Positions 19,501-38,140 of a stretch of 64,000 nt of DNA are shown here, piece by piece; position 1 is the stretch's first letter, and every line of letters starts with the position of its first letter. The stretch lies in IMG/VR virus record IMGVR_UViG_3300035704_000001, positions 64,001 to 128,000 of that record; one strand, written 5' to 3'. The position numbers were made by a program, and so were the translations under genes. The notes beneath the pieces are model-generated. The model did not search any database and was not told the origin of the DNA. It was given only the letters and a program-made list of their open reading frames with translations. This stretch comes from a virus.

Positions 19501-19603
19501 TGGACGAGCTGAGAGCGGCCGCGGAGGCCGGGACCGTCGATGTGCACGTAGCGGCAGCAGCGGCCATCTTCGGCCTGGAATCGGCCCAGGTCGGCCCGGC
19601 TGA
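16559..19603 (+). CDS. B12-binding-type radical SAM protein (TIGR03960-like) fused to a radical SAM-linked DUF2344/TIGR03936-like domain; coding-like signal ends at about 19435
   Basis: LRDFDVV, AGG...PE...D...GEAE, EIARGCTCWCPFC, LEGNSQRMR, IKLYM...PGET, WEHIDTG; C-terminal RLRL...RFASS...SSGVEYAEF. Confidence 0.85.
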   Translation: MTRTAEAAGRWLDENLYRFDGPGQFLGDEPGSQLASLGMDRAALWDYGKVRVCLAASWDYAQASGNIAIPAVLNAIRVAGEYVADRFYLPSTSRDWSMLVKGGLGCFGIETRHPLRDFDVVATSISYTVLFQNFSAYLTASGIPLRRADREKNPEAWPLVMAGGQAYCAPEFMSAVFDCIWLGEAEDEEGESGGIGEVCGVIAACKADGCWQRDRLGCYRMLARRFSHLYFPQFTAFTYRYEDRGLEHPTKMVAGHWPVLDGMRYPHQRRYIKNLDKMCPLCSAPLLYTDPGMGAGDSEIARGCTCWCPFCRLSWVTKPYRQHDVDYSIRQMQLWRQAMGSVDISLVAPDPPVHTQMKELLARILGEVTDEVDASSMRIDDYLADHDFALLMTIAGADSLTLGLEGNSQRMRDLAGKGTSDDDVCEVVTRAIRAGIRRIKLYMITNWPGETAADVMRIVELGRRLAAIRADFDAQKVRIQFSWTPLLIEAQTPLQWFEVTAPDYRLQQALDELRDLGISMKIGSKANPDKLAFFQACQRASRDAGEALADVVEGIGEPSWGGFPKDMQDRLDVALMSHGFLNGLADLFGERFRSDLLGWEHIDTGVSTDLMWQVYADMVAFLKGTDPETYDDAERGAASGNEWVGRCDQTCQGAACGACDHDDLKLRKDYITATDRDLEAEPVDPVDHTTVSRRLRLRLYRPQEYRFASSEFLRFHIRAAAFRACDATGFPAIAKRTVGLASDATAYRDRSSGVEYAEFGVTRPVTAGEELERFLDALGSGLAPWLELEACQVLPAAARMPSRPVGLWEVETDLTEDELAALLRGWDKAGTVRFLLKSDSFYAGEQAVWINAKDHVTDLWATRAGHRVVVRMLLGGKLGPYQVMQALLGKNSWMPLARHPAVRLGFFRPGQEAGPLPCTGCGLPVPEGLLGEIPDCDWCPRCRDEEAGEIIAGLARVGVLQGTEVNTWGEACGRHSDVRGRGRAESGRGGRDRRCARSGSSGHLRPGIGPGRPG

Positions 19604-25305: not shown

Positions 25306-25959
25306 GTGAGCGCGGTCGACAAGCTGCTGGCCCTGACCGGTAACGGGCCCGAGGTCCCGGACCCGGACACCGAGCTGCTGCGCGCCGCGCAGCAGCAGGC
25401 CCGGGAGCTGGAGGCGCTGGTCTGCCTGGCCTGGGACGACGATGACGACAAGGACGGCGGCGGAGGCGGGGATCATTCCGGGCATTCCACCTACAAGGCC
25501 CTGATCAAGAAGAAGATGGACCCGAAGCGGGCCGCGTCGATGTGCGCCCGGTCGGACAAGAACGTCAAGGCCTCCCAGCTGGCCCGCTCCCTCGTGCTCA
25601 TGCTGTCCGGCGAGCCCGGCCGGGACCTGGTGCTCACCCTGACCGCCGGGGAGCACGAGCGCCGCGCGGCCGCGCAGCACGAGGTGACCCAGGCTGAGGA
25701 GGCGGCCGCCCTGGCGGCCCAGCTGCCCGGGATCACCGTCTCTCCTGCCGGGCTGGAAGAGGTCGCTGAGCTGGCCGCCAAGGCGATGGGCGACGGCGGC
25801 ATCATCATGAACCACGGCCCGTTTACCGGCGAGCACGCGCACGGGCACTTCCAGTCGAACGTGCATGCCCATCCGCACAAGCACTTCGGCGATAACCGCC
25901 ATGACGGCGGACCTCAGCACCGGCCGGGCAGTCAGCCCGGCGGCCGGGCCGGCTGGTAG
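25306..25959 (+). CDS. hypothetical protein with His-rich C-terminus
   Basis: RBS GGAGG; HGPFTGEHAHGHFQSNVHAHPHKH. Confidence 0.7.
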   Translation: MSAVDKLLALTGNGPEVPDPDTELLRAAQQQARELEALVCLAWDDDDDKDGGGGGDHSGHSTYKALIKKKMDPKRAASMCARSDKNVKASQLARSLVLMLSGEPGRDLVLTLTAGEHERRAAAQHEVTQAEEAAALAAQLPGITVSPAGLEEVAELAAKAMGDGGIIMNHGPFTGEHAHGHFQSNVHAHPHKHFGDNRHDGGPQHRPGSQPGGRAGW

Positions 25960-25967
25960 GAGACACC

Positions 25968-26135
25968 ATGTTCGCTGTTGTCGGTCTCATCTGCGGCATT
26001 GTCGCCGCGATCCTGAACCTGACCAATCAGCATGTCGGGATCATCACCTGGCTGCTGATCATCGCCGCCATCTGCTTCGGCATCGAGCTGGTCTGGTCCT
26101 GGCACCGCGGCGGTTACTACCACCGCGCCCCGTGA
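25968..26135 (+). CDS. small two-TM membrane protein (55 aa), not in the ORF track
   Basis: RBS AGGAG; MFAVVGLICGIVAAIL...IITWLLIIAAICFGI. Confidence 0.7.
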   Translation: MFAVVGLICGIVAAILNLTNQHVGIITWLLIIAAICFGIELVWSWHRGGYYHRAP

Positions 26136-28087
26136 CCGGGGCAGGCGCCGCGGCCGCGCGGCTCCTGCTGGCAGGTGACTCGGCCGCCTCCTACGGCGAC
26201 CGCCAGTCCGGCTCGATCGCGTTCACCGAGGAGCCGGTGCCGCTGACGGTGTTCGTCCAGGACAAGGGCTACCTGGCCAACCCGCCGCTGTCCCCGGTGC
26301 AGTACGAGGCGGTGCTGCATGCCGAGCGGGTCTATTACCCGTCCGCCTACGAGGTGCTGGCGCAGTCCGCGGACCGCAAGATCCGCGAGTACTGGAAGCA
26401 GACCGTCCGGATGGTCAACTTCCTGGAGCTGGAGTGGGGCAAGGGCGGCGGCAAGGACCACACCTGCCGGATGATCGCCATGCGGGTCTGCTACCTGCTG
26501 CTGTGCCTGCGCAGCCCGCAGGACTACTACGGCATGCCCGCCCAGGACAGCATCCACTGCCTGAACGTGGCCAGTTCCTCCAAGCAGGCCCAGCGCGCGT
26601 TCTTCGCCCCGATGCGGCGCGCGGTGACCCGCCCCGGGAGCTGGTTCCAGCGCCGGTCGGGGGTGGACATCCTGGACTCGGCCGAGCGGCGCAGCGGGCC
26701 GGCCAAGACCACCGCCCTGCTGGACACCATCCGGTTCGAGCACAACATCGAGGCGGTCTCCGGGCACTCCGACGCGGACAGCCAGGAGGGGCTGAACCTC
26801 ATGCTCGGCATCGCGGATGAGGTGGACGCCTTCAAGAGCCGGGCCGAGCTGGCCAAGTCCACCGGCGCCAAGCAGCGCGAGTCATCCAGCTCGGCCGAGT
26901 CCATCCTGGAGATGCTGCGCACATCGGCGTCTACCCGGTTTCCCGAGGTGTATAAAAACGTCCACATCAGCTATCCCAGGTACCTCGGGTCAGTGATCCA
27001 GCAGCAGGTGGCGAGGGGTAAGGCTGATATCGCCGCCAAGGGCGACGCCTCGCACTACTACGTGTCCGGCCCGCTGTGCACCTGGGAGGCCAACCCGCGG
27101 GTGCCCGGCAAGCAGGCCTTCGCCGAGGACTACGAGCGGGACCCGGCCATGGCCGAGGCCAAGTACGAGTGCAAGCCCCGCCGGGCCATCAACCCCTACT
27201 TCAGCAACGAGCAGGCGCTGCGGGACTGCACGTACGAGGCCAGCCAGTATCCCGTCGAGGTGGACTACACCCGCGAGGGCGCCACCTGGAAGCCGGTCTA
27301 TGTCTTCAGCGGCGACTTCTTCCCGGTCAAGGGCGCGCTGTACGCGATGCACGCCGACCTGTCGGTGACCGGTGACCGGGCCGGCGTCACCCTGGCGCAC
27401 GTCAAGCGGTGGCAGGACCACACGGTGACCGCCACCGAGGAGGACGGCATCGAGGTGCAGCTGACCGAGCGGCGGCCGGTGGTCAAGATCGACTTCACCA
27501 TCAGCTACTCGGCCAGCGTGGGCGCGGTGCCGCCGCGGGAGATCCAGATTAGATGGGCCCGGATGCTGGCGCTGGAGCTGCGCCGGCTGGGCTTCCCCAT
27601 CATGCGGTTCACGTTCGACCAGTACCAGAGCAAGGATTCCATGCAGATCCTGGAGTCTCACGGCATCGAGACCGACCGGTTCTCCACCGACGTGAGCGAG
27701 GAAGGCTGGCGGACCCTGCGGGACGTGATGTACGAGGGCCGGCTGGAGATGCCGGCCCGCGAGCTGCTGATCAACGAGCTGCTGGGGCTCTCGCGGCTGC
27801 CGAACGGCAAGATCGATCATCTGGGCGACTCCTCCAAGGACGAGGCCGACAGCCTAGCCGGGGCGGTAGCCGGCGCGCTGGAACTCGGGGGAGCAGAGGA
27901 CCCGTCCGGCAAGCGCGCGTACTTCGGCACGCACAAGTTCTGGGAGCCGGACGGCATAGCCGAGGAGCTGAGCCCGCTCGGGATGCTGCCGGCCCCGGCT
28001 ATGCTCGGCCCCGGCGAGCCGCTGCCCGAGTACCGCGGCGGCATGGAGTACAGCGGCGAGCTGAACTACTGGGGGCCCGAGATATGA
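26132..28087 (+). CDS. terL: terminase large subunit
   Basis: Walker A variant GKGGGKD, IADEVD, ISYPR, nuclease HADLS...D, FDQYQS, KIDH...SKDEAD. Confidence 0.9.
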   Translation: MTGAGAAAARLLLAGDSAASYGDRQSGSIAFTEEPVPLTVFVQDKGYLANPPLSPVQYEAVLHAERVYYPSAYEVLAQSADRKIREYWKQTVRMVNFLELEWGKGGGKDHTCRMIAMRVCYLLLCLRSPQDYYGMPAQDSIHCLNVASSSKQAQRAFFAPMRRAVTRPGSWFQRRSGVDILDSAERRSGPAKTTALLDTIRFEHNIEAVSGHSDADSQEGLNLMLGIADEVDAFKSRAELAKSTGAKQRESSSSAESILEMLRTSASTRFPEVYKNVHISYPRYLGSVIQQQVARGKADIAAKGDASHYYVSGPLCTWEANPRVPGKQAFAEDYERDPAMAEAKYECKPRRAINPYFSNEQALRDCTYEASQYPVEVDYTREGATWKPVYVFSGDFFPVKGALYAMHADLSVTGDRAGVTLAHVKRWQDHTVTATEEDGIEVQLTERRPVVKIDFTISYSASVGAVPPREIQIRWARMLALELRRLGFPIMRFTFDQYQSKDSMQILESHGIETDRFSTDVSEEGWRTLRDVMYEGRLEMPARELLINELLGLSRLPNGKIDHLGDSSKDEADSLAGAVAGALELGGAEDPSGKRAYFGTHKFWEPDGIAEELSPLGMLPAPAMLGPGEPLPEYRGGMEYSGELNYWGPEI

Positions 28088-28581: not shown

Positions 28582-28610
28582 TTGACACCGGTCAGGTGCC
28601 CGCGTAGAGT
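28582..28610 (+). promoter_or_regulatory. housekeeping-sigma promoter for the tRNA array
   Basis: TTGACA-N17-TAGAGT. Confidence 0.8.
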
Positions 28611-28851: not shown

Positions 28852-28924
28852 GGGAGCGTGGCACAGCGGCAACTGCAGTGGCCTCCAAAACCACCAACCG
28901 AGGGTTCGAGTCCTTCCGCTCCTG
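28852..28924 (+). tRNA. tRNA-Trp(CCA)
   Basis: Cloverleaf; anticodon loop CTCCAAA. Confidence 0.9.
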
Positions 28925-28970
28925 CGACCATCGTCAACGCGAGAGCCGCGACGGTGCCTGTCACCTGGCA

Positions 28971-28993
28971 GTACTTGAGAACTCCACAGCGTG
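28971..28993 (+). promoter_or_regulatory. rRNA-leader boxA-like element
   Basis: GTACTTGAGAACTCCACAGCGTG resembles the actinobacterial rrn leader TTGAGAACTCAA.AG.GTG. Confidence 0.65.
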
Positions 28994-29081
28994 AGCATCG
29001 AGCAGGCTAGCCAGCCTGCTCAGTTAGACGTGCTGGGCTGGCCGCAACCGGGACTCCCCGGGGAAGCCAGCCCAGCGCACT

Positions 29082-29154
29082 GGGGCTATAGCGCAGCTGG
29101 TAGCGCACCTCCATGGCATGGAGGGGGTCAGGAGTTCGAATCTCCTTAGCTCCA
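29082..29154 (+). tRNA. tRNA-Ala(GGC)
   Basis: Cloverleaf; G3.U70. Confidence 0.95.
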
Positions 29155-29256
29155 CTGGTGCTGCTGACATGTGTAGAGGGCCGTGACGGGTACCTCAGCG
29201 GCGGTTATGCCGAAGGCCGGGTGTCTCCGGCGGCAAATAGGCGGCGGCACCAGCCT

Positions 29257-29329
29257 GGGGCTGAAGCACAACTGGTTGTGCATCGGTGTCGCAAGCCGAC
29301 GGGTGCGGGTTCGAGTCCCGCCAGCTCCA
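29257..29329 (+). tRNA. tRNA-Ala(CGC)
   Basis: Cloverleaf; loop GTCGCAA; G3.U70. Confidence 0.9.
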
Positions 29330-29332
29330 CTA

Positions 29333-29457
29333 GCCGGGAGATGCGGGTTCGAATCCCGTCAGCTATGCAGCCGTCGCCTTCAGCAGTGCACCTGGAGGCG
29401 GCCCGCTCGGCCGAGCGGGCAGGCAGCCAGCTGTAGCTCAACTGGCAGAGCCCCGGC
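29333..29457 (+). ncRNA. circularly permuted tRNA-like RNA (YrlA-like topology)
   Basis: Order is anticodon-stem 3' strand, T arm, closed acceptor stem, D arm, anticodon-stem 5' strand. Confidence 0.7.
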
Positions 29458-29463
29458 GTTAAA

Positions 29464-29538
29464 CGGGAAGTGGCGCAGCTTGGCTAGCGCGCCGCGTTCG
29501 GGACGCGGAGGTCGTGGGTTCGAATCCCGCCTTCCCGA
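29464..29538 (+). tRNA. tRNA-Pro(CGG)
   Basis: Cloverleaf. Confidence 0.95.
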
Positions 29539-29582
29539 CTAGGCCGGCAAGCGGGGCCGAGAGGCCAGCGCACGGCCACCAA

Positions 29583-29658
29583 CGGGCTGTGGCGCAGTTT
29601 GGCTCAGCGCACCTGTCTGGGGGACAGGGGGTCATCGGTTCGAATCCGGTCAGCCCGA
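29583..29658 (+). tRNA. tRNA-Pro(GGG)
   Basis: Cloverleaf. Confidence 0.93.
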
Positions 29659-29776
29659 CTAGGCAGGTCCGACGCAGGCGCCGCCTTTAAGCGGTTCGCG
29701 GCGGAAGCGAGGACGCTCGTCTCGTGTGGTACCGGGGTACCGGGTTCCCCGGACGACATGGGTGGCCTGCCTTTCA

Positions 29777-29848
29777 CGGGATGTGGTGTAAGGGTCAGCG
29801 TGCCTGCTTTGGAAGCAGGAGGATGAGGTTCGAGTCCTTGCATCCCGA
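29777..29848 (+). tRNA. tRNA-Pro(TGG)
   Basis: Cloverleaf; loop TTTGGAA. Confidence 0.9.
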
Positions 29849-29914
29849 CTGAGGGGAGGAACCCCCGGCACGGGTAGCGCGGAGGGGTCCGCGTCCGGCC
29901 GCCTCCCCCGACAT

Positions 29915-29988
29915 GGAGCTGTAGCTCAGTTGGTAAGAGCGCCCGTCTGAAAAGCGGGAGGTCGGTGTGTCGAGTACACCTGGCTCCA
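29915..29988 (+). tRNA. tRNA-Phe(GAA)
   Basis: Cloverleaf; atypical T loop GTCGAGT. Confidence 0.9.
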
Positions 29989-30173
29989 CGATGGACTGAC
30001 GTCTGGCGGCAGCCGAAAGGCCGAGCAACCGGGTGACTGATCTGGAGGCCTCCAGTACCCAGTAAGCCGCGCAGCTGCAGCTGCGCGGTATCAGCCCACC
30101 CCGGGACATCCACTCCGGGGCGCGAGGACGACCGGCGGACCCAGGCGTTACTGGGGGCTTGAGCCGGGACCCT

Positions 30174-30246
30174 GCGGACGAGTCCCAACTGGCCGGGTAC
30201 CAGCCCTCCAAGCTGGTTGTTGCGGGTTCGACTCCCGTCGTCCGCT
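30174..30246 (+). tRNA. tRNA-Gly(TCC), C33
   Basis: Cloverleaf; loop CCTCCAA. Confidence 0.82.
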
Positions 30247-30365
30247 CTTAGGATGTGAAGAGGTACGGGCCCGGATGCTACTCCGGGTTGCGTGCAAGCG
30301 GCTGTCGGGTCGCGGCCGGGCGGGGTGGTGAGGCCGACATCTTGCCACCCCGCGCCGGTTTTCAT

Positions 30366-30437
30366 GCTCCGTTAGCTCAGTGGCAGAGCGGTGGGCTCTT
30401 AACCCGCGCGTCCGGGGTCCGATTCCCTGACGGAGCA
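30366..30437 (+). tRNA. tRNA-Lys(CTT)
   Basis: Cloverleaf; T loop TCCGATT. Confidence 0.9.
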
Positions 30438-30443
30438 CAGCAC

Positions 30444-30516
30444 GGGCGGGTAGGCCAGCGGGAGAGTCAGCCGCCCCAAAAGCGGTAGTGCGCGGGTTCG
30501 AATCCCGCCCCGCCCA
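30444..30516 (+). tRNA. tRNA with CAA (Leu) anticodon, short variable loop, C33
   Basis: Loop CCCAAAA; 5-nt variable region. Confidence 0.78.
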
Positions 30517-30614
30517 CGAACGGATGACACGGCCGTCCTGCGAATCCGTGTCCGGTCCCTCCCTGGGGAGGAACAAGGCCGTTACTCCGGGGAGAGCAAA
30601 GACCCCCGGCGCGA

Positions 30615-30686
30615 TGGGGTATGGGGTAACCGGCAGCCCGGCGGACTCTGAATCCGTCAGTCTTGGTTCGAATCCAGGTACCTCAG
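30615..30686 (+). tRNA. tRNA-Gln(CTG)
   Basis: Cloverleaf. Confidence 0.95.
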
Positions 30687-31157
30687 CTAGCTGGCCGCCG
30701 GCCAGCTGGACACGTCGTTCACGGCGGTGTGGATCGTGTCGCTCAGCGGGGTCGGCCAGGGCACCGTGGGCAGGATGTAGCCGCGGAGCCGGATGGCGCC
30801 GTAGGCCTCGATCAGCCAGCGCAGGTAGGGCAGCGCCTGGAACTGCATCAGCTGGATCATGTCCGGGCTGGTGTACGGGCCGCCGCCGTCACTGACAGGC
30901 GGGCTGGTGGCTTCCAGCTCGCTGTCGGACGATCCGGTCTCCCCGGTCGAGACGGGCGGGAAGCCCTCGAAGTGCTTCCCGCCGGCGTTGTCGGTGTAGG
31001 CGACGACCCAGATCACGGTGTCACCGGAGCCGGCCAGGGAGGCCACCTCGACGGGGCTCTGGGCCATGTTGAACATGGCCGCGAAGTTGATCCCGTCACC
31101 GGTGTCCGAATTCATGAAGGTGTCGATCTCGGCGTCAGTCGGAGGGGCGGTAGCCAT
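30687..31157 (-). CDS. hypothetical protein, antisense within the tRNA array
   Basis: High GC3 on the minus strand; fills the gap between tRNAs. Confidence 0.75.
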   Translation of the reverse strand: MATAPPTDAEIDTFMNSDTGDGINFAAMFNMAQSPVEVASLAGSGDTVIWVVAYTDNAGGKHFEGFPPVSTGETGSSDSELEATSPPVSDGGGPYTSPDMIQLMQFQALPYLRWLIEAYGAIRLRGYILPTVPWPTPLSDTIHTAVNDVSSWPAAS

Positions 31158-31206
31158 GGCCCTACCCTGGCCGGCTTCCGCGCCGCGCGCAATTGCGCGA
31201 GGTCAC

Positions 31207-31279
31207 GCCGGGGTAGCTCAAATGGCAGAGCAGGCGTCTCGTAAACGTCAGGTTGAGGGTTCGATCCCGTCCTCCGGCT
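31207..31279 (+). tRNA. tRNA-Thr(CGT)
   Basis: Cloverleaf. Confidence 0.92.
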
Positions 31280-31287
31280 CGATACAC

Positions 31288-31373
31288 GTCCGCGTGGCGG
31301 AATAGGCATACGCGCAGCCTTGAGGTGGCTGTGCTCCTAGCGGAGCGTGAGAGTTCAAGTCTCTCCGCGGACA
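31288..31373 (+). tRNA. tRNA-Leu(GAG)
   Basis: Class II cloverleaf. Confidence 0.95.
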
Positions 31374-31378
31374 CACGG

Positions 31379-31451
31379 TGGGGGTTAGCTCAATAGGCCG
31401 AGCAGCGGTCCTTGGTACCGCGGGATCGGGGTTCGAGTCCCTGGCCCCCAG
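31379..31451 (+). tRNA. tRNA-Gln(TTG), C33
   Basis: Loop CCTTGGT. Confidence 0.85.
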
Positions 31452-31697
31452 CAGAATCAATCGCGGGCTGCGTGTCAGGAATCGTCAGGCCGGCGACAGA
31501 TAGCTAGTAGGACCTGCCCTTCGGACCGGCGTCCGCGTGTCTTCGGTAAGGACGCGCCGCCCGGATCGGCACCGGGGAAGGGCTCAAGAGGGGGCGGCGC
31601 GTTCCGGCCTTCTGCCTCGTGCGGACGAGACTGGTCTCTCCCCGTGCAGGTTGTCTCTGGTGGTGGTTAGGCCAGCACCGCCGGACAGGGGCGCAAT

Positions 31698-31771
31698 GCG
31701 GACGTGGCTCAGTCGGTTACGGCGCCACGTTGCCAACGTGGAGATCGCGAGTTCGAATCTCGCCGTCCGCA
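31698..31771 (+). tRNA. tRNA-Gly(GCC)
   Basis: Cloverleaf. Confidence 0.93.
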
Positions 31772-31773
31772 CT

Positions 31774-31827
31774 CAGGGATGAAACAGCAGCGGGCTGTAA
31801 AGCCGGTTCGACTCCGGTGATCCCTGT
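31774..31827 (+). ncRNA. anticodon-less tRNA-like RNA
   Basis: Acceptor CAGGGAT/ATCCCTG, D-like hairpin, T arm GCCGG-TTCGACT-CCGGT. Confidence 0.6.
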
Positions 31828-31831
31828 TCGA

Positions 31832-31914
31832 GCGCTCGTGGCGAAACGGCATACGCGCACGGTTCAGGTCCGTGTGCCCGCGAGGGCGTAAGGGTTCAAA
31901 TCCCTTCGAGCGCA
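31832..31914 (+). tRNA. tRNA-Leu(CAG)
   Basis: Class II cloverleaf. Confidence 0.95.
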
Positions 31915-31975
31915 CGACATCCTGGCCGCTTCGACGGCCAGGACGCGGGCCCTGGCTCTGGCCAGGGCCCAGCAC

Positions 31976-32062
31976 GGAGGGCTGGCTCAGCGGCTACAGC
32001 GGCGCCCTGCTAAGGCGCAGGGGCTCCGGCCCTCACGGGTTCGAGTCCCGTGCCCTCCTCCA
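31976..32062 (+). tRNA. tRNA-Ser(GCT)
   Basis: Class II cloverleaf; encoded CCA. Confidence 0.92.
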
Positions 32063-32063
32063 C

Positions 32064-32123
32064 GGGCTGTATGACACCGGCCGTGCCTGCCGGCAAAGGC
32101 GGGTTCGCCTCCCGTACGGTCCA
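32064..32123 (+). ncRNA. truncated tRNA-like RNA
   Basis: Acceptor GGGCTGT/ACGGTCC and T arm GCGGG-TTCGCCT-CCCGT; no proper anticodon arm. Confidence 0.5.
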
Positions 32124-32127
32124 CCCT

Positions 32128-32214
32128 GGAGGGTTCGCCTAGTGGCCTATGGCGCACGCCTGGAAAGCGTGTTGGGTGGCGACACCCTCGCGGGTTCGAC
32201 TCCCGCACCCTCCT
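32128..32214 (+). tRNA. tRNA-Ser(GGA)
   Basis: Class II cloverleaf. Confidence 0.95.
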
Positions 32215-32289
32215 CTGGTCTCGTTCGTGACTCCGTATTAGGGGTGTGTTACCGTCACGATACGGTCCGTCACGGAAAGGGAGTTCATC

Positions 32290-32415
32290 ATGCGTCGCAG
32301 GTTTATCGCCGGGATCATTCTCCTGGGTGCACTGCTCGGAGGAGCAGCCGCTACCGGAGGGGCTGCTTCCGCAGCCGCTCATTCAGCTCCCGGAACGGTC
32401 TATTACCACGGCTGA
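32290..32415 (+). CDS. 41-aa secreted pre-peptide MRRRFIAGIILLGALLGGAAATGGAASAAAHSAPGTVYYHG, not in the ORF track
   Basis: RBS GAAAGGGAG, Sec-type signal peptide, own promoter motif at 32234, downstream hairpin. Confidence 0.75.
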   Translation: MRRRFIAGIILLGALLGGAAATGGAASAAAHSAPGTVYYHG

Positions 32416-32426
32416 GCTGAATTGAC

Positions 32427-32487
32427 CAGGCAGACCCGGGTGTCTTCGAGACGGGGTACCCCGTCAGGCGCACACCGGGTCTGCCTG
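32427..32487 (+). terminator. branched hairpin after the peptide gene
   Basis: CAGGCAGACCCGG/CCGGGTCTGCCTG 13-bp stem enclosing GACGGGG-ta-CCCCGTC. Confidence 0.5.
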
Positions 32488-32494
32488 CTTTCCT

Positions 32495-32580
32495 GGGGGG
32501 TTCGCCTAGTGGCCTATGGCGCCGGTCCCGAAAACCGAAGGGGGAAACCCCCGTGGGTTCGAATCCCACACCCCCCTCCA
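32495..32580 (+). tRNA. tRNA-Ser(CGA), C33
   Basis: Loop CCCGAAA; encoded CCA. Confidence 0.88.
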
Positions 32581-32581
32581 A

Positions 32582-32659
32582 GGGCAGGCAGCATCGACAG
32601 GTTCGAGCGCTCGTCTGATAAACGAGAGGGTGGAGGTTCAAATCCTCCCCTGCCCACCA
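32582..32659 (+). tRNA. tRNA-Ile(GAT)
   Basis: Loop CTGATAA; irregular D arm; encoded CCA. Confidence 0.85.
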
Positions 32660-32660
32660 C

Positions 32661-32735
32661 GGCGGTATAGCTCAGCTGGTCAGAGCGCCCCACTCATAAT
32701 GGGAGAGGCCGCTGGTTCGAGTCCAGCTACCGCCA
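32661..32735 (+). tRNA. tRNA-Met(CAT), elongator-type (Ile2 not excluded)
   Basis: Cloverleaf; G1-C72. Confidence 0.9.
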
Positions 32736-32739
32736 CTCC

Positions 32740-32814
32740 GGGCTGTTAACTCAGTGGCAGAGTCTTCGACTTTTAATCGAGTGGTCCGGGGTTCGATCCC
32801 CCGACAGCCCACCA
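32740..32814 (+). tRNA. tRNA-Lys(TTT)
   Basis: Cloverleaf; encoded CCA. Confidence 0.95.
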
Positions 32815-32815
32815 G

Positions 32816-32889
32816 GCGCCCGTAGCTCAGCCGGACAGAGCTGCTGCCTTCTAAGCAGCGGGCCGCGGGTTCGAATCCTGCCGGGCGCG
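32816..32889 (+). tRNA. tRNA-Arg(TCT)
   Basis: Cloverleaf. Confidence 0.95.
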
Positions 32890-32974
32890 CTAGCTGAGTG
32901 GTAATAATGGATGTGCCGGGCCTGGATGTGTGGGTTCCCTCCGGGGCTTCTCGCTTCCCGGGTCCGGTCTGTAT

Positions 32975-33049
32975 CGTCCCGTGGAGCAGCCAGGAGTGTT
33001 CGCCGCTCTCTCAAAGCGGAGGTCGAGGGTTCAAATCCCTTCGGGACGA
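32975..33049 (+). tRNA. tRNA-Glu(CTC)
   Basis: Cloverleaf. Confidence 0.92.
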
Positions 33050-33113
33050 CATCACGGGCTAGTTCCCGGCCAATGTGCCGGGGAGCCGAGGCCGGCGGTC
33101 CCACCGGCCATCA

Positions 33114-33187
33114 GGCCCCATGGAGCTAAAAGAGCAGGCCACCGCCCTTTCAAGGCGGGGGTGCGGGTTCGAGTCCCGCTGGGGCTG
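33114..33187 (+). tRNA. tRNA-Glu(TTC)
   Basis: Good acceptor, anticodon and T arms; degenerate D arm. Confidence 0.8.
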
Positions 33188-33188
33188 C

Positions 33189-33264
33189 TGCGGAGGGGGT
33201 TCGGTCACCCGACTAGGCCTCATAAGCCTGGGGACGCAGGTTCAAATCCTTGCCTCCGCTACCA
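33189..33264 (+). tRNA. tRNA-Met(CAT), initiator-like
   Basis: 1:72 mismatch (T/T); loop CTCATAA; encoded CCA. Confidence 0.78.
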
Positions 33265-33265
33265 A

Positions 33266-33337
33266 TCCGGTATCCGTTAATCGGTAAACGAGCTGACCGT
33301 TAATCAGCCCCTCTTGGTTCGAGTCCAAGTACCGGAG
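33266..33337 (+). tRNA. tRNA-Asn(GTT), C33
   Basis: Loop CCGTTAA. Confidence 0.88.
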
Positions 33338-33351
33338 CGCAGGTAAATCAG

Positions 33352-33426
33352 GAGCCAGTGGAGCAGCTTGGAGTGCTCGTCTCCCCGTCAAGGAGAAGAC
33401 CGCGGGTTCAAATCCCGTCTGGCCCG
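33352..33426 (+). tRNA. tRNA-Asp(GTC), C33
   Basis: Loop CCGTCAA. Confidence 0.88.
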
Positions 33427-33427
33427 C

Positions 33428-33619
33428 TCAGAACAGCCCGTGGCCGCCGGCCTTGGCCCGGCGCATCCGCTCGCGGCTCTCGTAGCTGCCGAGCTGGTTG
33501 AAGCCCCAGACCCGGCCCATGCGCATCCCGATGGTCAGCGCGATGACGGCAATGATGATCGCGCCGACCGGGCCGAACAGGGCCCAGGCGACGATGAGGA
33601 GGAGAACTCCGAGCAGCAC
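33428..33619 (-). CDS. small membrane protein, antisense in the tRNA array
   Basis: Two hydrophobic segments; start uncertain. Confidence 0.6.
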   Translation of the reverse strand: MLLGVLLLIVAWALFGPVGAIIIAVIALTIGMRMGRVWGFNQLGSYESRERMRRAKAGGHGLF

Positions 33620-33655
33620 GTCATTGACGGTACATAACTGATAGCAGTTTGACCA

Positions 33656-33727
33656 GGGCGGGTGGCGCAGCGGGAGCGCGCTTCCCCGACAAGGAAGAGG
33701 CCGCCAGTTCAATCCTGGCCCCGCCCA
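33656..33727 (+). tRNA. tRNA-Val(GAC), C33
   Basis: Loop CCGACAA. Confidence 0.9.
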
Positions 33728-33773
33728 CGCTTGACACCAGCAGTAGTCAGTAGGTTACTGTTGGCGAGTTCAA

Positions 33774-33846
33774 GCGCTCCTAGCTCAGCGGATAGAGCGG
33801 CCGACTACGGATCGGCAGGTGCGGGGTTCGAGTCCCTGGGAGCGCG
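33774..33846 (+). tRNA. tRNA-Arg(ACG)
   Basis: Cloverleaf. Confidence 0.95.
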
Positions 33847-33910
33847 CGAGACCCCGGTCCTGCAACGGCGCAAGCCGGCCGGCAGATCCGGCGCCGGGGT
33901 CCGTCTTTCA

Positions 33911-33940
33911 GGGCGCATAGCTCAGCAGGAGAGCGGCTGG
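33911..33940 (+). pseudogene. orphan 5' half of a tRNA (Val-like)
   Basis: GGGCGCA-TA-GCTC-AGCAGGA-GAGC with no 3' half; immediately precedes the endonuclease. Confidence 0.7.
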
Positions 33941-33971
33941 TACAGTGCCAACAGGTCTGTATGCTGGGATA

Positions 33972-34382
33972 GTGAACGGTAATACGAATAGCAACAGCGT
34001 CGGTGCTCGAACCGAGGGCATGATCATGGCGGCGTTGCTTCGTGCAGGTAAGACTGTCCTTACCCCGTTCGGGGTCCAGCGCTATGACCTGGTATTCGAG
34101 GATGAATCAGGATTCCACCGGGTTCAGTGCAAGACAGGCCGTCTAAAGGACGGGGCTATAGTGTTCGAGACCTGCAGCCGCCACAGTAGAACACTTCAGC
34201 GAACCTCATACCACGGGCACGCGGACTTCTTCGGCGTGTACTACCCGGGAGGGGATGCTTGTTACTTGATACCGATCGAATTGGTGGGTCAGACGCAGGG
34301 CAGTATCCGGATCGTGCAGACGAAGAACAGCCAGGCCAAAGGCGTCTTGAACGCCGAGCAATTTGTAATAATGTCCAGTTAG
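33972..34382 (+). mobile_element. free-standing PD-(D/E)xK homing endonuclease (group I intron-associated PDDEXK_5 / I-Ssp6803I-like)
   Basis: G...E...L...PFG..RYDLV...RVQCKTG...Y...ADFFGVY...YLIP; lower GC; TATGCT -10 precedes the GTG; stop lies inside tRNA-Val(CAC). Confidence 0.85.
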
Positions 34383-34447
34383 CTCAGCGGGAGAGCGCTG
34401 CCCCCACACGGCAGGCGTCGGGAGTTCGACCCTCTCACTGGACACCA
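34373..34447 (+). tRNA. tRNA-Val(CAC), C33
   Basis: Loop CCCACAC; encoded CCA. Confidence 0.88.
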
Positions 34448-34448
34448 T

Positions 34449-34521
34449 GGTGGTTGTAGCTCAAGGTAGAGCCCGGGGTTGTGAGCCCCGGAGGTGCGGG
34501 TCGTACCCGTCAATCACCCCA
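34449..34521 (+). tRNA. tRNA-His(GTG)
   Basis: G-1:C73; shortened T loop; encoded CCA. Confidence 0.85.
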
Positions 34522-34522
34522 A

Positions 34523-34603
34523 GGCGGAGTAACCCTAGAGGCAAGGGAGCGGCCTGTAAAGCCGTGGTCTTCGATACGGCAGGTTCGATTCCTGCGTCCG
34601 CCA
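34523..34603 (+). tRNA. tRNA-Tyr(GTA)
   Basis: Class II cloverleaf. Confidence 0.88.
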
Positions 34604-34643
34604 CTGCACAGCGATCTACCGGAGTTCTTCCGGGGATCTACCA

Positions 34644-34715
34644 GCGCCCGTAGCTCAGGGGATAGAGCTGCGGCCTCCGGAGCCGTGAGCGGGAGTTCGA
34701 ATCTCTCCGGGCGCG
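34644..34715 (+). tRNA. tRNA-Arg(CCG)
   Basis: Cloverleaf. Confidence 0.95.
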
Positions 34716-34726
34716 CGTACGATAAT

Positions 34727-34801
34727 GGCGGTGTGGCCGAGTGGCCCAGGCGTGCGCCTGCAAAGCGCACTACACGAGTTCGATTCTCGTCTCCGCCTCC
34801 A
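34727..34801 (+). tRNA. tRNA-Cys(GCA)
   Basis: Cloverleaf; U73; encoded CCA. Confidence 0.92.
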
Positions 34802-34835
34802 ACCAAGAAGGGACTCCCCGAAGGGAGTCCCTTGA

Positions 34836-34908
34836 TGGCCCGTGGTCCAGCGGACACGGATAGCTGCCTCCTAAGCGGCGGACGCGGGTTCGAATCCCGC
34901 CGGGCCAG
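34836..34908 (+). tRNA. tRNA-Arg(CCT)
   Basis: Cloverleaf. Confidence 0.9.
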
Positions 34909-34933
34909 CCCAGGTGCTCACGCTGCGGCAGTA

Positions 34934-36502: not shown

Positions 36503-38140
36503 GTGACCACACCCGGAGGCGGGCAGGGCGTCCCGTACACCTCCAGCGTCCAGCCGCCGGGCGGCATGGGCGTGACGAGCCAGGGCTTCGGGCAGGAGGG
36601 CTATCTCCTGGCGCAGGACCAGGAGCTGCCCAAGCCGCCGCCGGAGGCGCTGGACTTCGCGGTCGGCGTCCCGTACTTCCTCCCGTTCAGCGTCCCGTAC
36701 CGGGACAGCTGGGAGGTGTTCCGCGATGACCCGATCTCGGTCCGCCAGCTGGTCACCATGCGCCGCCGCGATGGCCAGGCCCGGGCGCTGTACCGGCTGC
36801 TGACCAAGCCGCTGCTGGCCGCGATGGCCAACGCCGACGTGGTGCCGGCCGACGGCGTGGAAGGCGGGCTGGAGGAGGCCAGGTTCTGCAAGGAGCTGTT
36901 GTTCGCGCCCAAGCAGATGGGCGGGATGACCCACTCGTTCAGCCGGTTCCTCAAGCAGATGCTGCTGGCATTGTTCAATGGCTTCTCCGCGTGGGAAATG
37001 GTCTACCACGTCCCGACCAAGGGGCCGAATAAGGGCAAGATCACCCTGCGGAAGATGGACTGGCGCCCGGCCGAGACGCTGACATTCCTGCTGGACGGCC
37101 AGGGGGAATTCAACGGCTTCCGGCAAAGGACCTTCTTTCAGGGGAGGACCATTGATGTCAAGATCCCCCGGGAGACCGCGCTCTATTACGCGCACGAGGA
37201 GGCCGAGCGGCCTTTCTATGGCGTGTCCATGTTCGAGTCGGCCTTCTATCACTACGACAAGAAGGAGAAGCTGTACTACATTGCCCACCTGGCGGCGCAG
37301 CGGGCTGCCTGCGGCCTGCGGGTGGGCACCATGGTGCCGAACGCCCCGGCCGAGGACAAGAACAACTTCGTCAAGGCGCTGAGCCAGCTGGGCCTCGCCC
37401 AGTGGATCGCGCTGCCCACCGCGGACTGGACCGTCGAGACGCTGAACGAGTCGGCGAGCCGCTTCGACTTCCTGGGCCTGATTAACCATCACAATTCGCA
37501 GATGTCCAAGTCGGTGCTCGCGCAGTGGTTCGATGACTCTCAGGGCGGCGGCGGCGGCGACTCCACTCTCGTTGATTTCGGGAAGCAGGATGACGTCACG
37601 TTCTTCCTGATGCTGGAAGGCATCCTGGAGGAAATGGCCGAGATCATCAACACGCATGTCTTCCCGCGATTCGTGGACTGGAATTTCGGCAGCGAGAAGT
37701 ACCCCGAATTCAAGTGGGGGCCGCTCACCGAAGAGGCCAAGGCGGCTATCCAGGACACGTTCGACAAGCTGGCCGCCGCCGGGCAGCAGGCCAACGTCAC
37801 GCCGGAGTTCATGCTGGAGCTGGAGGAGCGGCTGGCGCAGGACTTCGGGTTCGCCATCGACTACGACAAGATCAAGGCCCAGCGGGAGAAGCAGCAGCGG
37901 CTCATGCAGCAGCAGATGGCCGCGCAGACCCAGGCGATGCAGCAGCAGCCGCAGCCCGGCGCCGCGGGAGCCGGCGCAGCCGCCGGGCAGCCGCCGGCGC
38001 CTCCGCCGCCCGCTCCCTTCCCGCCCGCCGGGTTCGGCCCGCCGGGCAGTGACGGCCCGCCCGCCAGGCCCGCCGGGGGTCCCGGGCTGGGCGGCGGCCG
38101 CGGAGCCGGCCCGCCCGGGCTGCAGGGGCGCGGATCGTGA
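36503..38140 (+). CDS. portal protein (DUF935 / Mu gp29-like)
   Basis: GFSAWEMVY, PFYG.SM, INHHNSQMSKSVL, VDWNF; position in the head module. Confidence 0.85.
   Translation: MTTPGGGQGVPYTSSVQPPGGMGVTSQGFGQEGYLLAQDQELPKPPPEALDFAVGVPYFLPFSVPYRDSWEVFRDDPISVRQLVTMRRRDGQARALYRLLTKPLLAAMANADVVPADGVEGGLEEARFCKELLFAPKQMGGMTHSFSRFLKQMLLALFNGFSAWEMVYHVPTKGPNKGKITLRKMDWRPAETLTFLLDGQGEFNGFRQRTFFQGRTIDVKIPRETALYYAHEEAERPFYGVSMFESAFYHYDKKEKLYYIAHLAAQRAACGLRVGTMVPNAPAEDKNNFVKALSQLGLAQWIALPTADWTVETLNESASRFDFLGLINHHNSQMSKSVLAQWFDDSQGGGGGDSTLVDFGKQDDVTFFLMLEGILEEMAEIINTHVFPRFVDWNFGSEKYPEFKWGPLTEEAKAAIQDTFDKLAAAGQQANVTPEFMLELEERLAQDFGFAIDYDKIKAQREKQQRLMQQQMAAQTQAMQQQPQPGAAGAGAAAGQPPAPPPPAPFPPAGFGPPGSDGPPARPAGGPGLGGGRGAGPPGLQGRGS

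What the first reader, a model, noticed from the sequence alone, without database searches (positions are those of the whole stretch)
32234..32487. Self-contained secreted mini-peptide gene: candidate phage communication signal or host-signal mimic
Seen: a 41-codon ORF missed by the ORF track, with its own promoter motif (CCGTATTAGGGG), a strong RBS and a downstream hairpin. It encodes a classic signal peptide (MRRR, hydrophobic core, ASA/AAA) followed by only about 11 residues, HSAPGTVYYHG. Known: signal peptide plus a short C-terminal mature peptide is the architecture of Phr and arbitrium AimP pre-peptides, and a YYH motif is also the core of biarylitide RiPP precursors. Inference: an actinophage peptide signal or a mimic of a host signal. 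No AimR-like TPR receptor or P450 is visible in this window.
Basis: partly seen in the sequence, partly recalled or inferred. Interest (0 to 1): 0.75.

Follow-up and report, generated by a model that had tools for sequence, protein, structure and literature searches.

The report
Tiny exported-peptide gene in phage tRNA array
A 41-codon gene between two tRNA genes of a large soil actinophage is real and belongs to a previously undescribed family of tiny proteins that look like an export signal followed by a short conserved tail ending in Tyr-Tyr-His, but nothing yet shows it is a phage communication signal or a biarylitide precursor.

Summary
ORF 32290-32415 (+) has a strong SD 6 nt upstream and is followed by a very stable hairpin. 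It lies in the 279-nt gap between tRNA-Ser(gga) and tRNA-Ser(cga) in the 36-tRNA array of a 150.8-kb, 70%-GC virus. It is a gene, not a chance ORF. An exhaustive HMMER search found six more 41-43-aa proteins, all with MR+basic start, hydrophobic core with invariant ALLG, an Ala/Ser/Gly linker with A-x-A sites, invariant Pro, and YYH[G/S]-stop. Synonymous changes in the tail codons, different stop codons, and dN/dS of 0.12-0.36 show selection on the protein. The gene moves as a cassette. It sits in two different tRNA slots in three phages and is absent from 12 syntenic relatives. On other actinomycete-like contigs it is followed 1 nt later by a 45-aa ORF and then a DUF397 gene. Best reading: a moron-like gene for an exported micro-protein, whose conserved tail is either released as a 10-15-residue peptide or held on a membrane anchor. 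The biarylitide reading fails: the genome has no P450, and the peptide is not 5 aa. Phr/AimP-type signalling stays untested, and no receptor gene is adjacent. The secretion-monitor arrest-peptide reading fails two of four published criteria. The function is unknown, and the family is new to Pfam, NCBIfam and PHROGs.

The parts
32233..32244 (+).
   Evidence: It is conserved only in the near-identical phage L015 and partly in L026, and not in the non-phage copies.
32246..32283 (+). Conserved upstream element that travels with the gene: invariant TGTTACC (32247-32253), a candidate -10 TAnnnT (TACGGT, 32261-32266), invariant TCAC (32270-32273), and the SD GGAAAGGGAG (32274-32283)
   Evidence: Alignment A2 of five divergent copies, including those outside tRNA arrays. 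The core is not repeated elsewhere in the window. A promoter or operator role is inferred, not shown.
32290..32415 (+). 41-codon gene (stop included): basic N-terminus, hydrophobic core with invariant ALLG, Ala/Gly/Ser linker with A-S-A, and the tail SAPGTVYYHG
   Evidence: dN/dS is 0.12-0.36 against four divergent copies, with synonymous and stop-codon differences in the tail.
32427..32487 (+). Stable hairpin followed by CTTTCCT; a terminator-like or RNA-stabilising/processing element
   Evidence: -45.8 kcal/mol, z = -4.8. It is retained in L015 (-39.8) and L026 (-31.2), with an invariant 3' arm CCGGGTCTG and 5'-arm changes that keep pairing through G-U. The interior is inverted relative to L015. 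It was not scored as a canonical intrinsic terminator because the U-tract is weak.
32128..32215 (+). tRNA-Ser(gga), left boundary of the slot
32495..32580 (+). tRNA-Ser(cga), right boundary of the slot

Best explanation
This is a real, accessory ('moron-like') phage gene for an exported micro-protein of a previously undescribed family. The product is little more than a Sec-type export signal: a basic N-terminus, a ~19-residue hydrophobic helix, and an Ala/Ser/Gly c-region with A-x-A sites. It ends in a short tail, A-P-x-x-(V)-Y-Y-H-[G/S]-COOH, which is the selected, functional part. At 41 residues, the chain is inferred to be targeted to the membrane only after translation ends. The helix inserts N-in/C-out, placing the tail outside the cytoplasmic membrane of the infected actinomycete. 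There the tail is either released by signal peptidase I as a 10-15-residue peptide or stays tethered as a signal-anchored micro-protein that acts on a host envelope component. The invariant ALLG in the helix hints at the second option. The gene travels with its own upstream control element and SD and, in phages, with a 3' hairpin. Because it lies inside a tRNA array, it can also be transcribed with the tRNA precursor and excised by tRNA processing, with the hairpin protecting its 3' end. Shown here: the gene is real, conserved at the protein level, mobile and accessory. Inferred: export, topology, cleavage, transcription route and target.
For: Gene reality: six homologs of 41-43 aa came from an unbiased full-library HMMER search and cluster look-ups. 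Fourteen columns are invariant, including ALLG, P34 and Y38-Y39-H40. The tail codons differ synonymously between copies (TAT TAC / TAC TAT / TAC TAC; CCC GGA / CCG GGG) and the stop codon is TGA or TAG. dN/dS is 0.12-0.36 with dS of 0.9-1.6. The last 29 nt are identical to L015 inside a block that is otherwise 60-70% identical. Export architecture in all seven members: charge +2/+3 in the first 4-5 residues, best 19-residue Kyte-Doolittle mean of 1.9-2.3, no Asp/Glu, and A-x-A sites leaving 10-20 residues. The only curated-family hits are sub-threshold signal-peptide-type matches. Cassette and moron behaviour: the SD and upstream element are conserved in all contexts and the hairpin in all three phage copies. 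The gene occupies the same slot in the near-identical phage L015 and a different slot, Ser(gct)->Ser(gga), in L026. It is absent from 12 syntenic relatives, four of them 97-100% complete. Only one copy exists in the own genome. An array promoter-like site lies at 28582-28610.
Against: Codon usage of the window's copy is atypical for the phage (GC3 0.54), although other copies have GC3 of 0.70-0.90. No signal-peptide predictor was available, so export and cleavage rest on heuristics. The alignment of the low-complexity linker is uncertain, which weakens the dN/dS numbers. The family is tiny: seven sequences and about 14 contigs. No target, receptor or processing enzyme has been identified. If the hairpin were an efficient terminator, it would cut off the 18 downstream tRNAs.
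Confidence: 0.72

Rival explanations
1. Diffusible peptide signal of the Phr/AimP (arbitrium) type, or a mimic of a host peptide signal. The pre-peptide is secreted and cleaved, and the C-terminal ~6-13 residues ending in YYH[G/S] are sensed by a receptor encoded elsewhere in the phage or in the host. This is a sub-case of the best explanation with an added signalling claim.
For: The architecture is 'export signal plus a short conserved extreme C-terminus'. The same peptide gene sits upstream of DUF397 genes on unrelated actinomycete-like contigs, so a host-type module with which a phage copy could interfere is conceivable. DUF397 is the family of the Streptomyces developmental regulator BldB (my own knowledge, not tested here).
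Against: No receptor gene accompanies the gene in any of the contexts: the neighbours are tRNAs in phages, and a 45-aa ORF plus DUF397 elsewhere. RRNPP/AimR systems keep the receptor adjacent and are known from Firmicutes and their phages (own knowledge). The gene is absent from 12 close relatives, so it is not part of a core lysis-lysogeny switch. The own genome has no DUF397. No copy was found in about 185,000 representative prokaryote genomes with a structured pattern.
Confidence: 0.12
2. Cis-acting regulatory leader peptide. Translation of the ORF, possibly with ribosome arrest at the conserved tail as in SecM/MifM/VemP/ApcA-ApdA or TnaC, controls what lies downstream. In phages that would be the hairpin 11 nt after the stop and hence the downstream tRNAs; elsewhere it would be the ORF that starts 1 nt after the stop.
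For: There is an N-terminal localisation signal plus a conserved C-terminal motif containing A-P-G/A-P-A and an invariant Pro. The stop codon lies 11 nt from the hairpin foot, and the spacing to the next ORF is 1 nt in five contigs. Two of the four published search criteria for monitoring substrates are met (PMC10987492).
Against: Two of the four criteria fail. No sec or yidC gene lies downstream in any context. The spacer between the hydrophobic segment and the C-terminus is about 17-20 residues against the required >30, so the signal would still be inside the ribosome tunnel at the stop codon. The downstream element differs between contexts while the peptide is kept. There is no Arg before A-P as in RAPG/RAPP.
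Confidence: 0.08
3. RiPP precursor. The YYH core is cross-linked (biarylitide/cyptide-like) by a P450 or another maturase supplied by the host, and the N-terminus acts as leader.
For: YYH is the core of biarylitide YYH (PMC12002111). The Tyr-Tyr-His triplet is invariant in all seven members.
Against: No P450 is present in the complete 150.8-kb genome, and none lies within about 390 nt downstream or about 1.3 kb upstream in the other contexts. Biarylitide precursors are 5 aa, have the P450 gene immediately downstream, and end in His. Here the peptide is 41-43 aa, has a membrane-type hydrophobic N-terminus, and carries an extra residue after His. The only radical SAM gene (16559-19603) is present in all four near-complete relatives that lack the peptide, so the two do not co-occur.
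Confidence: 0.04
4. Not a functional gene: a chance ORF in the high-GC spacer of a tRNA array, where the conserved features would be RNA-processing signals.
For: Long ORFs are common in 65-70% GC DNA, and several ORFs overlap this spot in other frames. GC3 is atypical at 0.54. The last 29 nt are identical to L015, synonymous sites included, which by itself would also fit a nucleotide-level constraint.
Against: Homologs occur outside tRNA arrays with the same length, start and end. Tyr, Pro and Gly codons in the tail differ synonymously, and the stop codon differs. dN/dS is well below 1. The SD sits at a conserved distance in all copies. No Rfam family other than tRNA is found in the window.
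Confidence: 0.04

Closest known systems
Phage morons (independently transcribed accessory genes inserted between core genes), including small membrane or secreted moron products
   Same: It is a single small gene with its own upstream element, SD and 3' hairpin, inserted between unrelated genes. It is present or absent among close relatives and sits at different insertion points.
   Different: The insertion site is inside a tRNA array, so transcription may come from the array promoter plus tRNA processing instead of from its own promoter. Promoter and terminator activity have not been shown. There is no sequence relation to any PHROG.
Phr / AimP (arbitrium) / other RRNPP pre-peptides
   Same: A short pre-peptide (about 40 aa) made of an export signal plus a conserved active-looking extreme C-terminus.
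   Different: No adjacent RRNPP/TPR receptor, no sequence similarity, and an actinophage instead of a Firmicutes system. The gene is accessory and is absent from close relatives.
Small membrane-anchored regulators such as MgrB (47 aa; PMC2789325 appeared in the search and was not read in detail)
   Same: Size, a single N-terminal hydrophobic helix with a basic N-terminus, and a short conserved extracytoplasmic tail. These features fit the tethered reading, as does the conserved ALLG in the helix.
   Different: No homology. The tail has Tyr-Tyr-His, whereas MgrB has conserved Cys residues (own knowledge). The target is unknown.
Biarylitide precursors (BytA, MRYYH) and other P450-modified RiPPs
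   Same: A Tyr-Tyr-His triplet near the C-terminus and an Arg after the initiator Met.
   Different: 41-43 aa against 5 aa, no P450 gene adjacent or anywhere in the genome, an extra C-terminal residue, and a hydrophobic membrane-type N-terminus.
Sec/YidC monitoring arrest peptides (SecM, MifM, VemP, ApcA, ApdA/ApdP)
   Same: An N-terminal localisation signal, a conserved C-terminal motif with Ala-Pro-Gly, and tight coupling to a downstream element.
   Different: Not upstream of sec or yidC, a spacer too short (<30 residues), and no Arg in the motif.

Membership tests
Biarylitide precursor (BytA-type) | Precursor is a pentapeptide MxYxH encoded by an 18-bp gene, with the cross-linked His as the last residue (PMC12002111) | tested here: not met
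   The peptides are 41-43 aa, and one residue (G or S) follows His.
Biarylitide precursor (BytA-type) | Cytochrome P450 (BytO) gene immediately downstream | tested here: not met
   PF00067 is absent from the complete 150.8-kb genome, while the control genomes gave hits. Downstream lie a tRNA or a 45-aa ORF plus DUF397.
Biarylitide precursor (BytA-type) | Biaryl cross-link in the mature product | not testable with these tools
   This needs mass spectrometry or NMR.
Phr/AimP-type (RRNPP) signalling pre-peptide | Short pre-peptide with an N-terminal secretion signal and the active peptide at the extreme C-terminus | tested here: inconclusive
   The heuristic features fit in all seven members. No SignalP-type predictor or experiment was available.
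Phr/AimP-type (RRNPP) signalling pre-peptide | Cognate TPR receptor (Rap/AimR-type) encoded next to the peptide gene | tested here: not met
   The neighbours are tRNAs in three phage loci. Elsewhere they are small ORFs and DUF397.
Phr/AimP-type (RRNPP) signalling pre-peptide | Re-import and concentration-dependent control of a phage or host decision | not testable with these tools
   This needs peptide-addition and infection assays.
Sec/YidC monitoring arrest peptide | uORF of a sec or yidC gene (criterion i, PMC10987492) | tested here: not met
Sec/YidC monitoring arrest peptide | N-terminal signal or TM segment and a conserved C-terminal sequence (criteria ii and iii) | tested here: met
Sec/YidC monitoring arrest peptide | [quoted passage not shown] | tested here: not met
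   The hydrophobic core ends at about residue 21-24 of 41-43, so the spacer is about 17-20 residues.
Phage moron | Accessory gene present or absent among close relatives, inserted between unrelated genes | tested here: met
   It is present in the window, L015 and L026. It is absent from 12 syntenic relatives. It occupies two different slots.
Phage moron | Own promoter and terminator giving independent transcription | tested here: inconclusive
   A conserved upstream element and a hairpin exist. No sigma-70-type promoter or canonical terminator was scored at the site, and no transcript data were obtained.

The most novel reading that the evidence does not exclude
The phage has captured the signal half of an actinomycete peptide-signalling or envelope-sensing module. 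On host-type contigs the module consists of the YYH peptide gene, a translationally coupled 45-aa protein and a DUF397 (BldB-family) regulator. By secreting the YYH-tailed peptide from infected hyphae, the phage would manipulate development or the defence state of neighbouring host cells. This would be a first peptide-based signal or signal mimic in actinophages.
Probability: 0.08. Interest if true: 0.85.

Novelty: new variant of a known kind. Interest (0 to 1): 0.5.

Why it matters
Small exported peptides are the currency of phage-phage (arbitrium) and cell-cell signalling in Firmicutes, and nothing comparable is established for actinophages or for Streptomyces-like hosts. This work turns a single unannotated ORF into a defined seven-member family. 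The family has an invariant, easily synthesised C-terminal motif (A-P-x-x-(V)-Y-Y-H-G/S), clear presence/absence contrasts among otherwise syntenic phages, and a second genomic context next to DUF397 genes. Secretion, processing and activity can therefore be tested directly. It also shows that phage tRNA arrays can host protein-coding cassettes that gene callers often skip. If the peptide turns out to be just one more small membrane moron, the finding is modest.

Tried and rejected
1. Word-index protein searches with the single peptide found nothing, among both similar-length and longer proteins. Only the exhaustive HMMER search found relatives.
2. tblastn and blastn against 50,697 phage records found no homolog of the peptide or the gap, only tRNA hits.
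3. The search for related loci with the peptide or the profile gave no confirmed loci in viral and metagenome contigs.
4. Degenerate DNA patterns scanned over the viral, genome and metagenome collections gave no true members. The four hits were out-of-frame chance matches in 40%-GC gammaproteobacterial DNA. The window's own record and near-identical ones may have been withheld from these scans.
5. 'Truncated N-terminus of a larger secreted protein' is rejected.
6. The radical SAM gene as a dedicated maturase is rejected, because the two genes do not co-occur.
7. A Tat signal is not supported. A loose RRx[FLIV] test is met by only 3 of 7 members, and the TIGR02811 hit is far below its cut-off (15.6 against 48.45 bits).
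8. The neighbour genes of the non-phage contigs have no match in the phage or plasmid collections and no relation to the window's genome, so their origin stays open. DUF397 also has a PHROG.
9. The 45-aa ORF is not significantly similar to DUF397 (E = 0.13).
10. The ESM Atlas look-alikes all scored below 0.9 and are unnamed, so they are not informative.
12. Structure and complex prediction were not run, because they could not discriminate between the readings for a 41-residue helix plus tail.

Full report
**Observation**

The window is bases 64001-128000 of a 150,822-bp IMG/VR virus record rated 100% complete, with about 70% GC. Its terminase (25865-28087) is 44% identical to that of Microbacterium phage Magritte and about 31% identical to those of large Streptomyces phages. 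The portal gene is at 36503-38140. An actinomycete host is therefore inferred.

Between terminase and portal lies an array of 36 tRNA genes, all on the + strand (28852-34910). The finding occupies the 279-nt gap between tRNA-Ser(gga) (32128-32215) and tRNA-Ser(cga) (32495-32580).

- The 41-codon ORF 32290-32415 is as described. No earlier in-frame start exists.
- The SD GGAAAGGGAG ends 6 nt before the ATG.
- A hairpin at 32427-32487 folds at -45.8 kcal/mol (z = -4.8).
It is a 1-mismatch copy of the class CGTAKTANNGGG, which is enriched (12 against 2.6 expected). Its function is unproven.

**Is it a gene?**

Codon usage alone is discouraging. GC3 is 0.54 against a mean of 0.90 in the phage's long ORFs, which is about the 2nd percentile of 41-codon windows. 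Overlapping ORFs in other frames are common in this GC-rich DNA. Comparative data decide the matter.

- An exhaustive phmmer search of 1.84 billion representatives gave two hits of 41 and 43 aa. A profile search and cluster look-ups added four more.
- All seven proteins are 41-43 aa. They begin M-R plus basic residues, share an invariant A-L-L-G in a hydrophobic core and an invariant Pro, and end Y-Y-H-[G/S]-stop.
- In the five copies with DNA, the tail codons differ synonymously (TAT TAC, TAC TAT, TAC TAC; CCC GGA against CCG GGG). The stop is TGA or TAG.
- Nei-Gojobori dN/dS for the divergent pairs is 0.12-0.36 at dS of 0.9-1.6. These numbers carry the caveat of 41 codons and a low-complexity linker.
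- The SD keeps its distance to the ATG in all copies.

This is selection on a protein, so the chance-ORF and pure-RNA readings are rejected.

**Contexts**

- L015 is a 4.9-kb JGI contig from a near-identical phage. The neighbouring 156-aa protein is 97% identical, the tRNA order is the same, and the gene is in the same slot.
- The two phages are 96-100% identical from about 31540 up to the ATG. From there on they are 60-70% identical, except for the last 29 nt of the ORF, which are identical.
- L026 is a Logan contig that carries the gene in another tRNA array but in a different slot, between Ser(gct) and Ser(gga).
- Twelve IMG/VR relatives (terminase 70-78% identical) have the same syntenic tRNA array but lack the gene, both near the array and in the ten full records searched. 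Four of these records are 97-100% complete.
- About eleven ENA contigs (L016-L025) carry three close variants without any tRNA. There the stop codon is followed after 1 nt by a 45-aa ORF with GC3 of 0.84, and 60 nt further on by a DUF397 gene (PF04149, E = 8e-19).
- These ENA contigs are unrelated to the window's genome. The window's genome has no DUF397.

The gene therefore behaves as a small mobile, accessory cassette. It consists of an upstream element (invariant TGTTACC, a TAnnnT candidate -10, and TCAC), the SD and the ORF. In phages a hairpin follows, whose 3' arm is invariant and whose 5' arm changes by G-U-compatible substitutions.

**What the product looks like**

All members have +2/+3 charge in the first 4-5 residues and a 19-residue window with a Kyte-Doolittle mean of 1.9-2.3. 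None has acidic residues. Several A-x-A sites would leave tails of 10-20 residues. Pfam, NCBIfam and PHROGs have no family for it; only sub-threshold signal-peptide-type hits appear.

I read this as a Sec-type signal, or signal anchor, plus a short exposed tail. Export would have to follow translation, because a 41-residue chain is largely inside the ribosomal tunnel at termination (inference from general knowledge). Whether signal peptidase releases the tail or the protein stays tethered cannot be decided here. The unusual conservation of ALLG within the helix leans towards a membrane-resident role, while the A-S-A sites lean towards release.

**Transcription**

A sigma-70-like site (TTGACA-17-TAGAGT, 28582-28610) precedes the array. 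No canonical promoter or U-rich terminator was scored at the cassette itself.

Because the upstream element is kept even outside tRNA arrays, it is probably the gene's own control region. In the phage, the mRNA could equally be cut out of the tRNA precursor, with the hairpin stabilising its 3' end. The weak U-tract (CUUUCCU) fits this better than efficient termination, which would silence 18 downstream tRNAs. All of this is inference.

**Comparison with known systems**

- **Biarylitides.** They are defined by a 5-aa MxYxH precursor with the P450 gene immediately downstream and His last (PMC12002111). None of these holds: there is no P450 in the whole genome. The radical SAM gene at 16559-19603 is present in relatives that lack the peptide.
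- **Phr/AimP.** The architecture fits, but the adjacent receptor is missing in every context.
- **Sec/YidC monitoring arrest peptides.** Two of the four published criteria are met and two fail, namely a sec/yidC gene downstream and a spacer longer than 30 residues (PMC10987492).
- **Truncated larger secreted protein.** This is rejected.
- **Closest functional analogues.** These are phage morons encoding small envelope proteins and small membrane regulators of the MgrB type. Both are analogies, not homologies.

**Verdict**

The biarylitide link is not. The communication or mimic idea remains an untested minority reading, made slightly more interesting by the DUF397-linked copies.

Interest is moderate. 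The gene is real, new, and testable with a synthetic peptide and mass spectrometry, but no evidence for function exists and the family is rare.

Noticed in passing
window 32440-32474 vs L015:3408-3442: The 35-nt interior of the post-ORF hairpin is inverted between the two near-identical phages (28/35 identical as reverse complement against 19/35 direct). This looks like a flip between the inverted-repeat arms.
   Followed up: partly
window 31540-33440 vs L015: There is a sharp mosaic boundary. The two phages are 96-100% identical up to the ATG at 32290 and 60-70% identical from there through the next ~10 tRNAs, then 99% identical again at 33441-33740. This suggests recombination breakpoints inside the tRNA array.
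   Followed up: partly
window 30687-31157 (-): A 156-aa minus-strand ORF lies inside the tRNA array. It is 97% identical in L015 and has no Pfam or PHROG match. It is an orphan gene antisense to the array.
   Followed up: partly
window 33945-34382 (+): A PD-(D/E)XK endonuclease gene (PF11645, E = 4e-28) is embedded in the tRNA array. It may be a homing-type mobile gene.
   Followed up: no
window 33428-33712 (-): A small minus-strand ORF with a strongly hydrophobic segment lies in another inter-tRNA gap. The region is 99% identical in L015, where a 63-aa gene was called.
   Followed up: no
window, 12 sites (e.g. 8306, 12522, 14416, 19432, 35948, 48119): The motif CGTAKTANNGGG is enriched (12 against 2.6 expected), mostly on the + strand just upstream of gene starts. 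It may be a phage-specific promoter or an initiation signal.
   Followed up: partly
L007:16431-16509; L006:15750-15823 and 17317-17403; L011:16145-16216: Related phages carry odd tRNAs at conserved array positions: a predicted tRNA-SeC(tca), which is suppressor-like, where others have Met(cat); His(atg); Ser(aga); and one tRNA with an aberrant anticodon loop.
   Followed up: no
window 16559-19603 (+): A 1014-aa radical SAM protein (PF19864 + PF04055) is conserved at 57-60% identity in four relatives. The copy in one relative (G004) has an in-frame TAG.
   Followed up: partly
L031:1489-2433 (+), L032:652-1602 (-): Relatives encode a ~315-aa secreted protein directly after their tRNA array. It is absent from the window's genome.
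   Followed up: partly
L020:500-637 (+) and 699-887 (+): On the non-phage contigs, the peptide gene is translationally coupled (TAG G ATG) to a 45-aa ORF and is followed by a DUF397 gene. This may be a three-gene module.
   Followed up: partly
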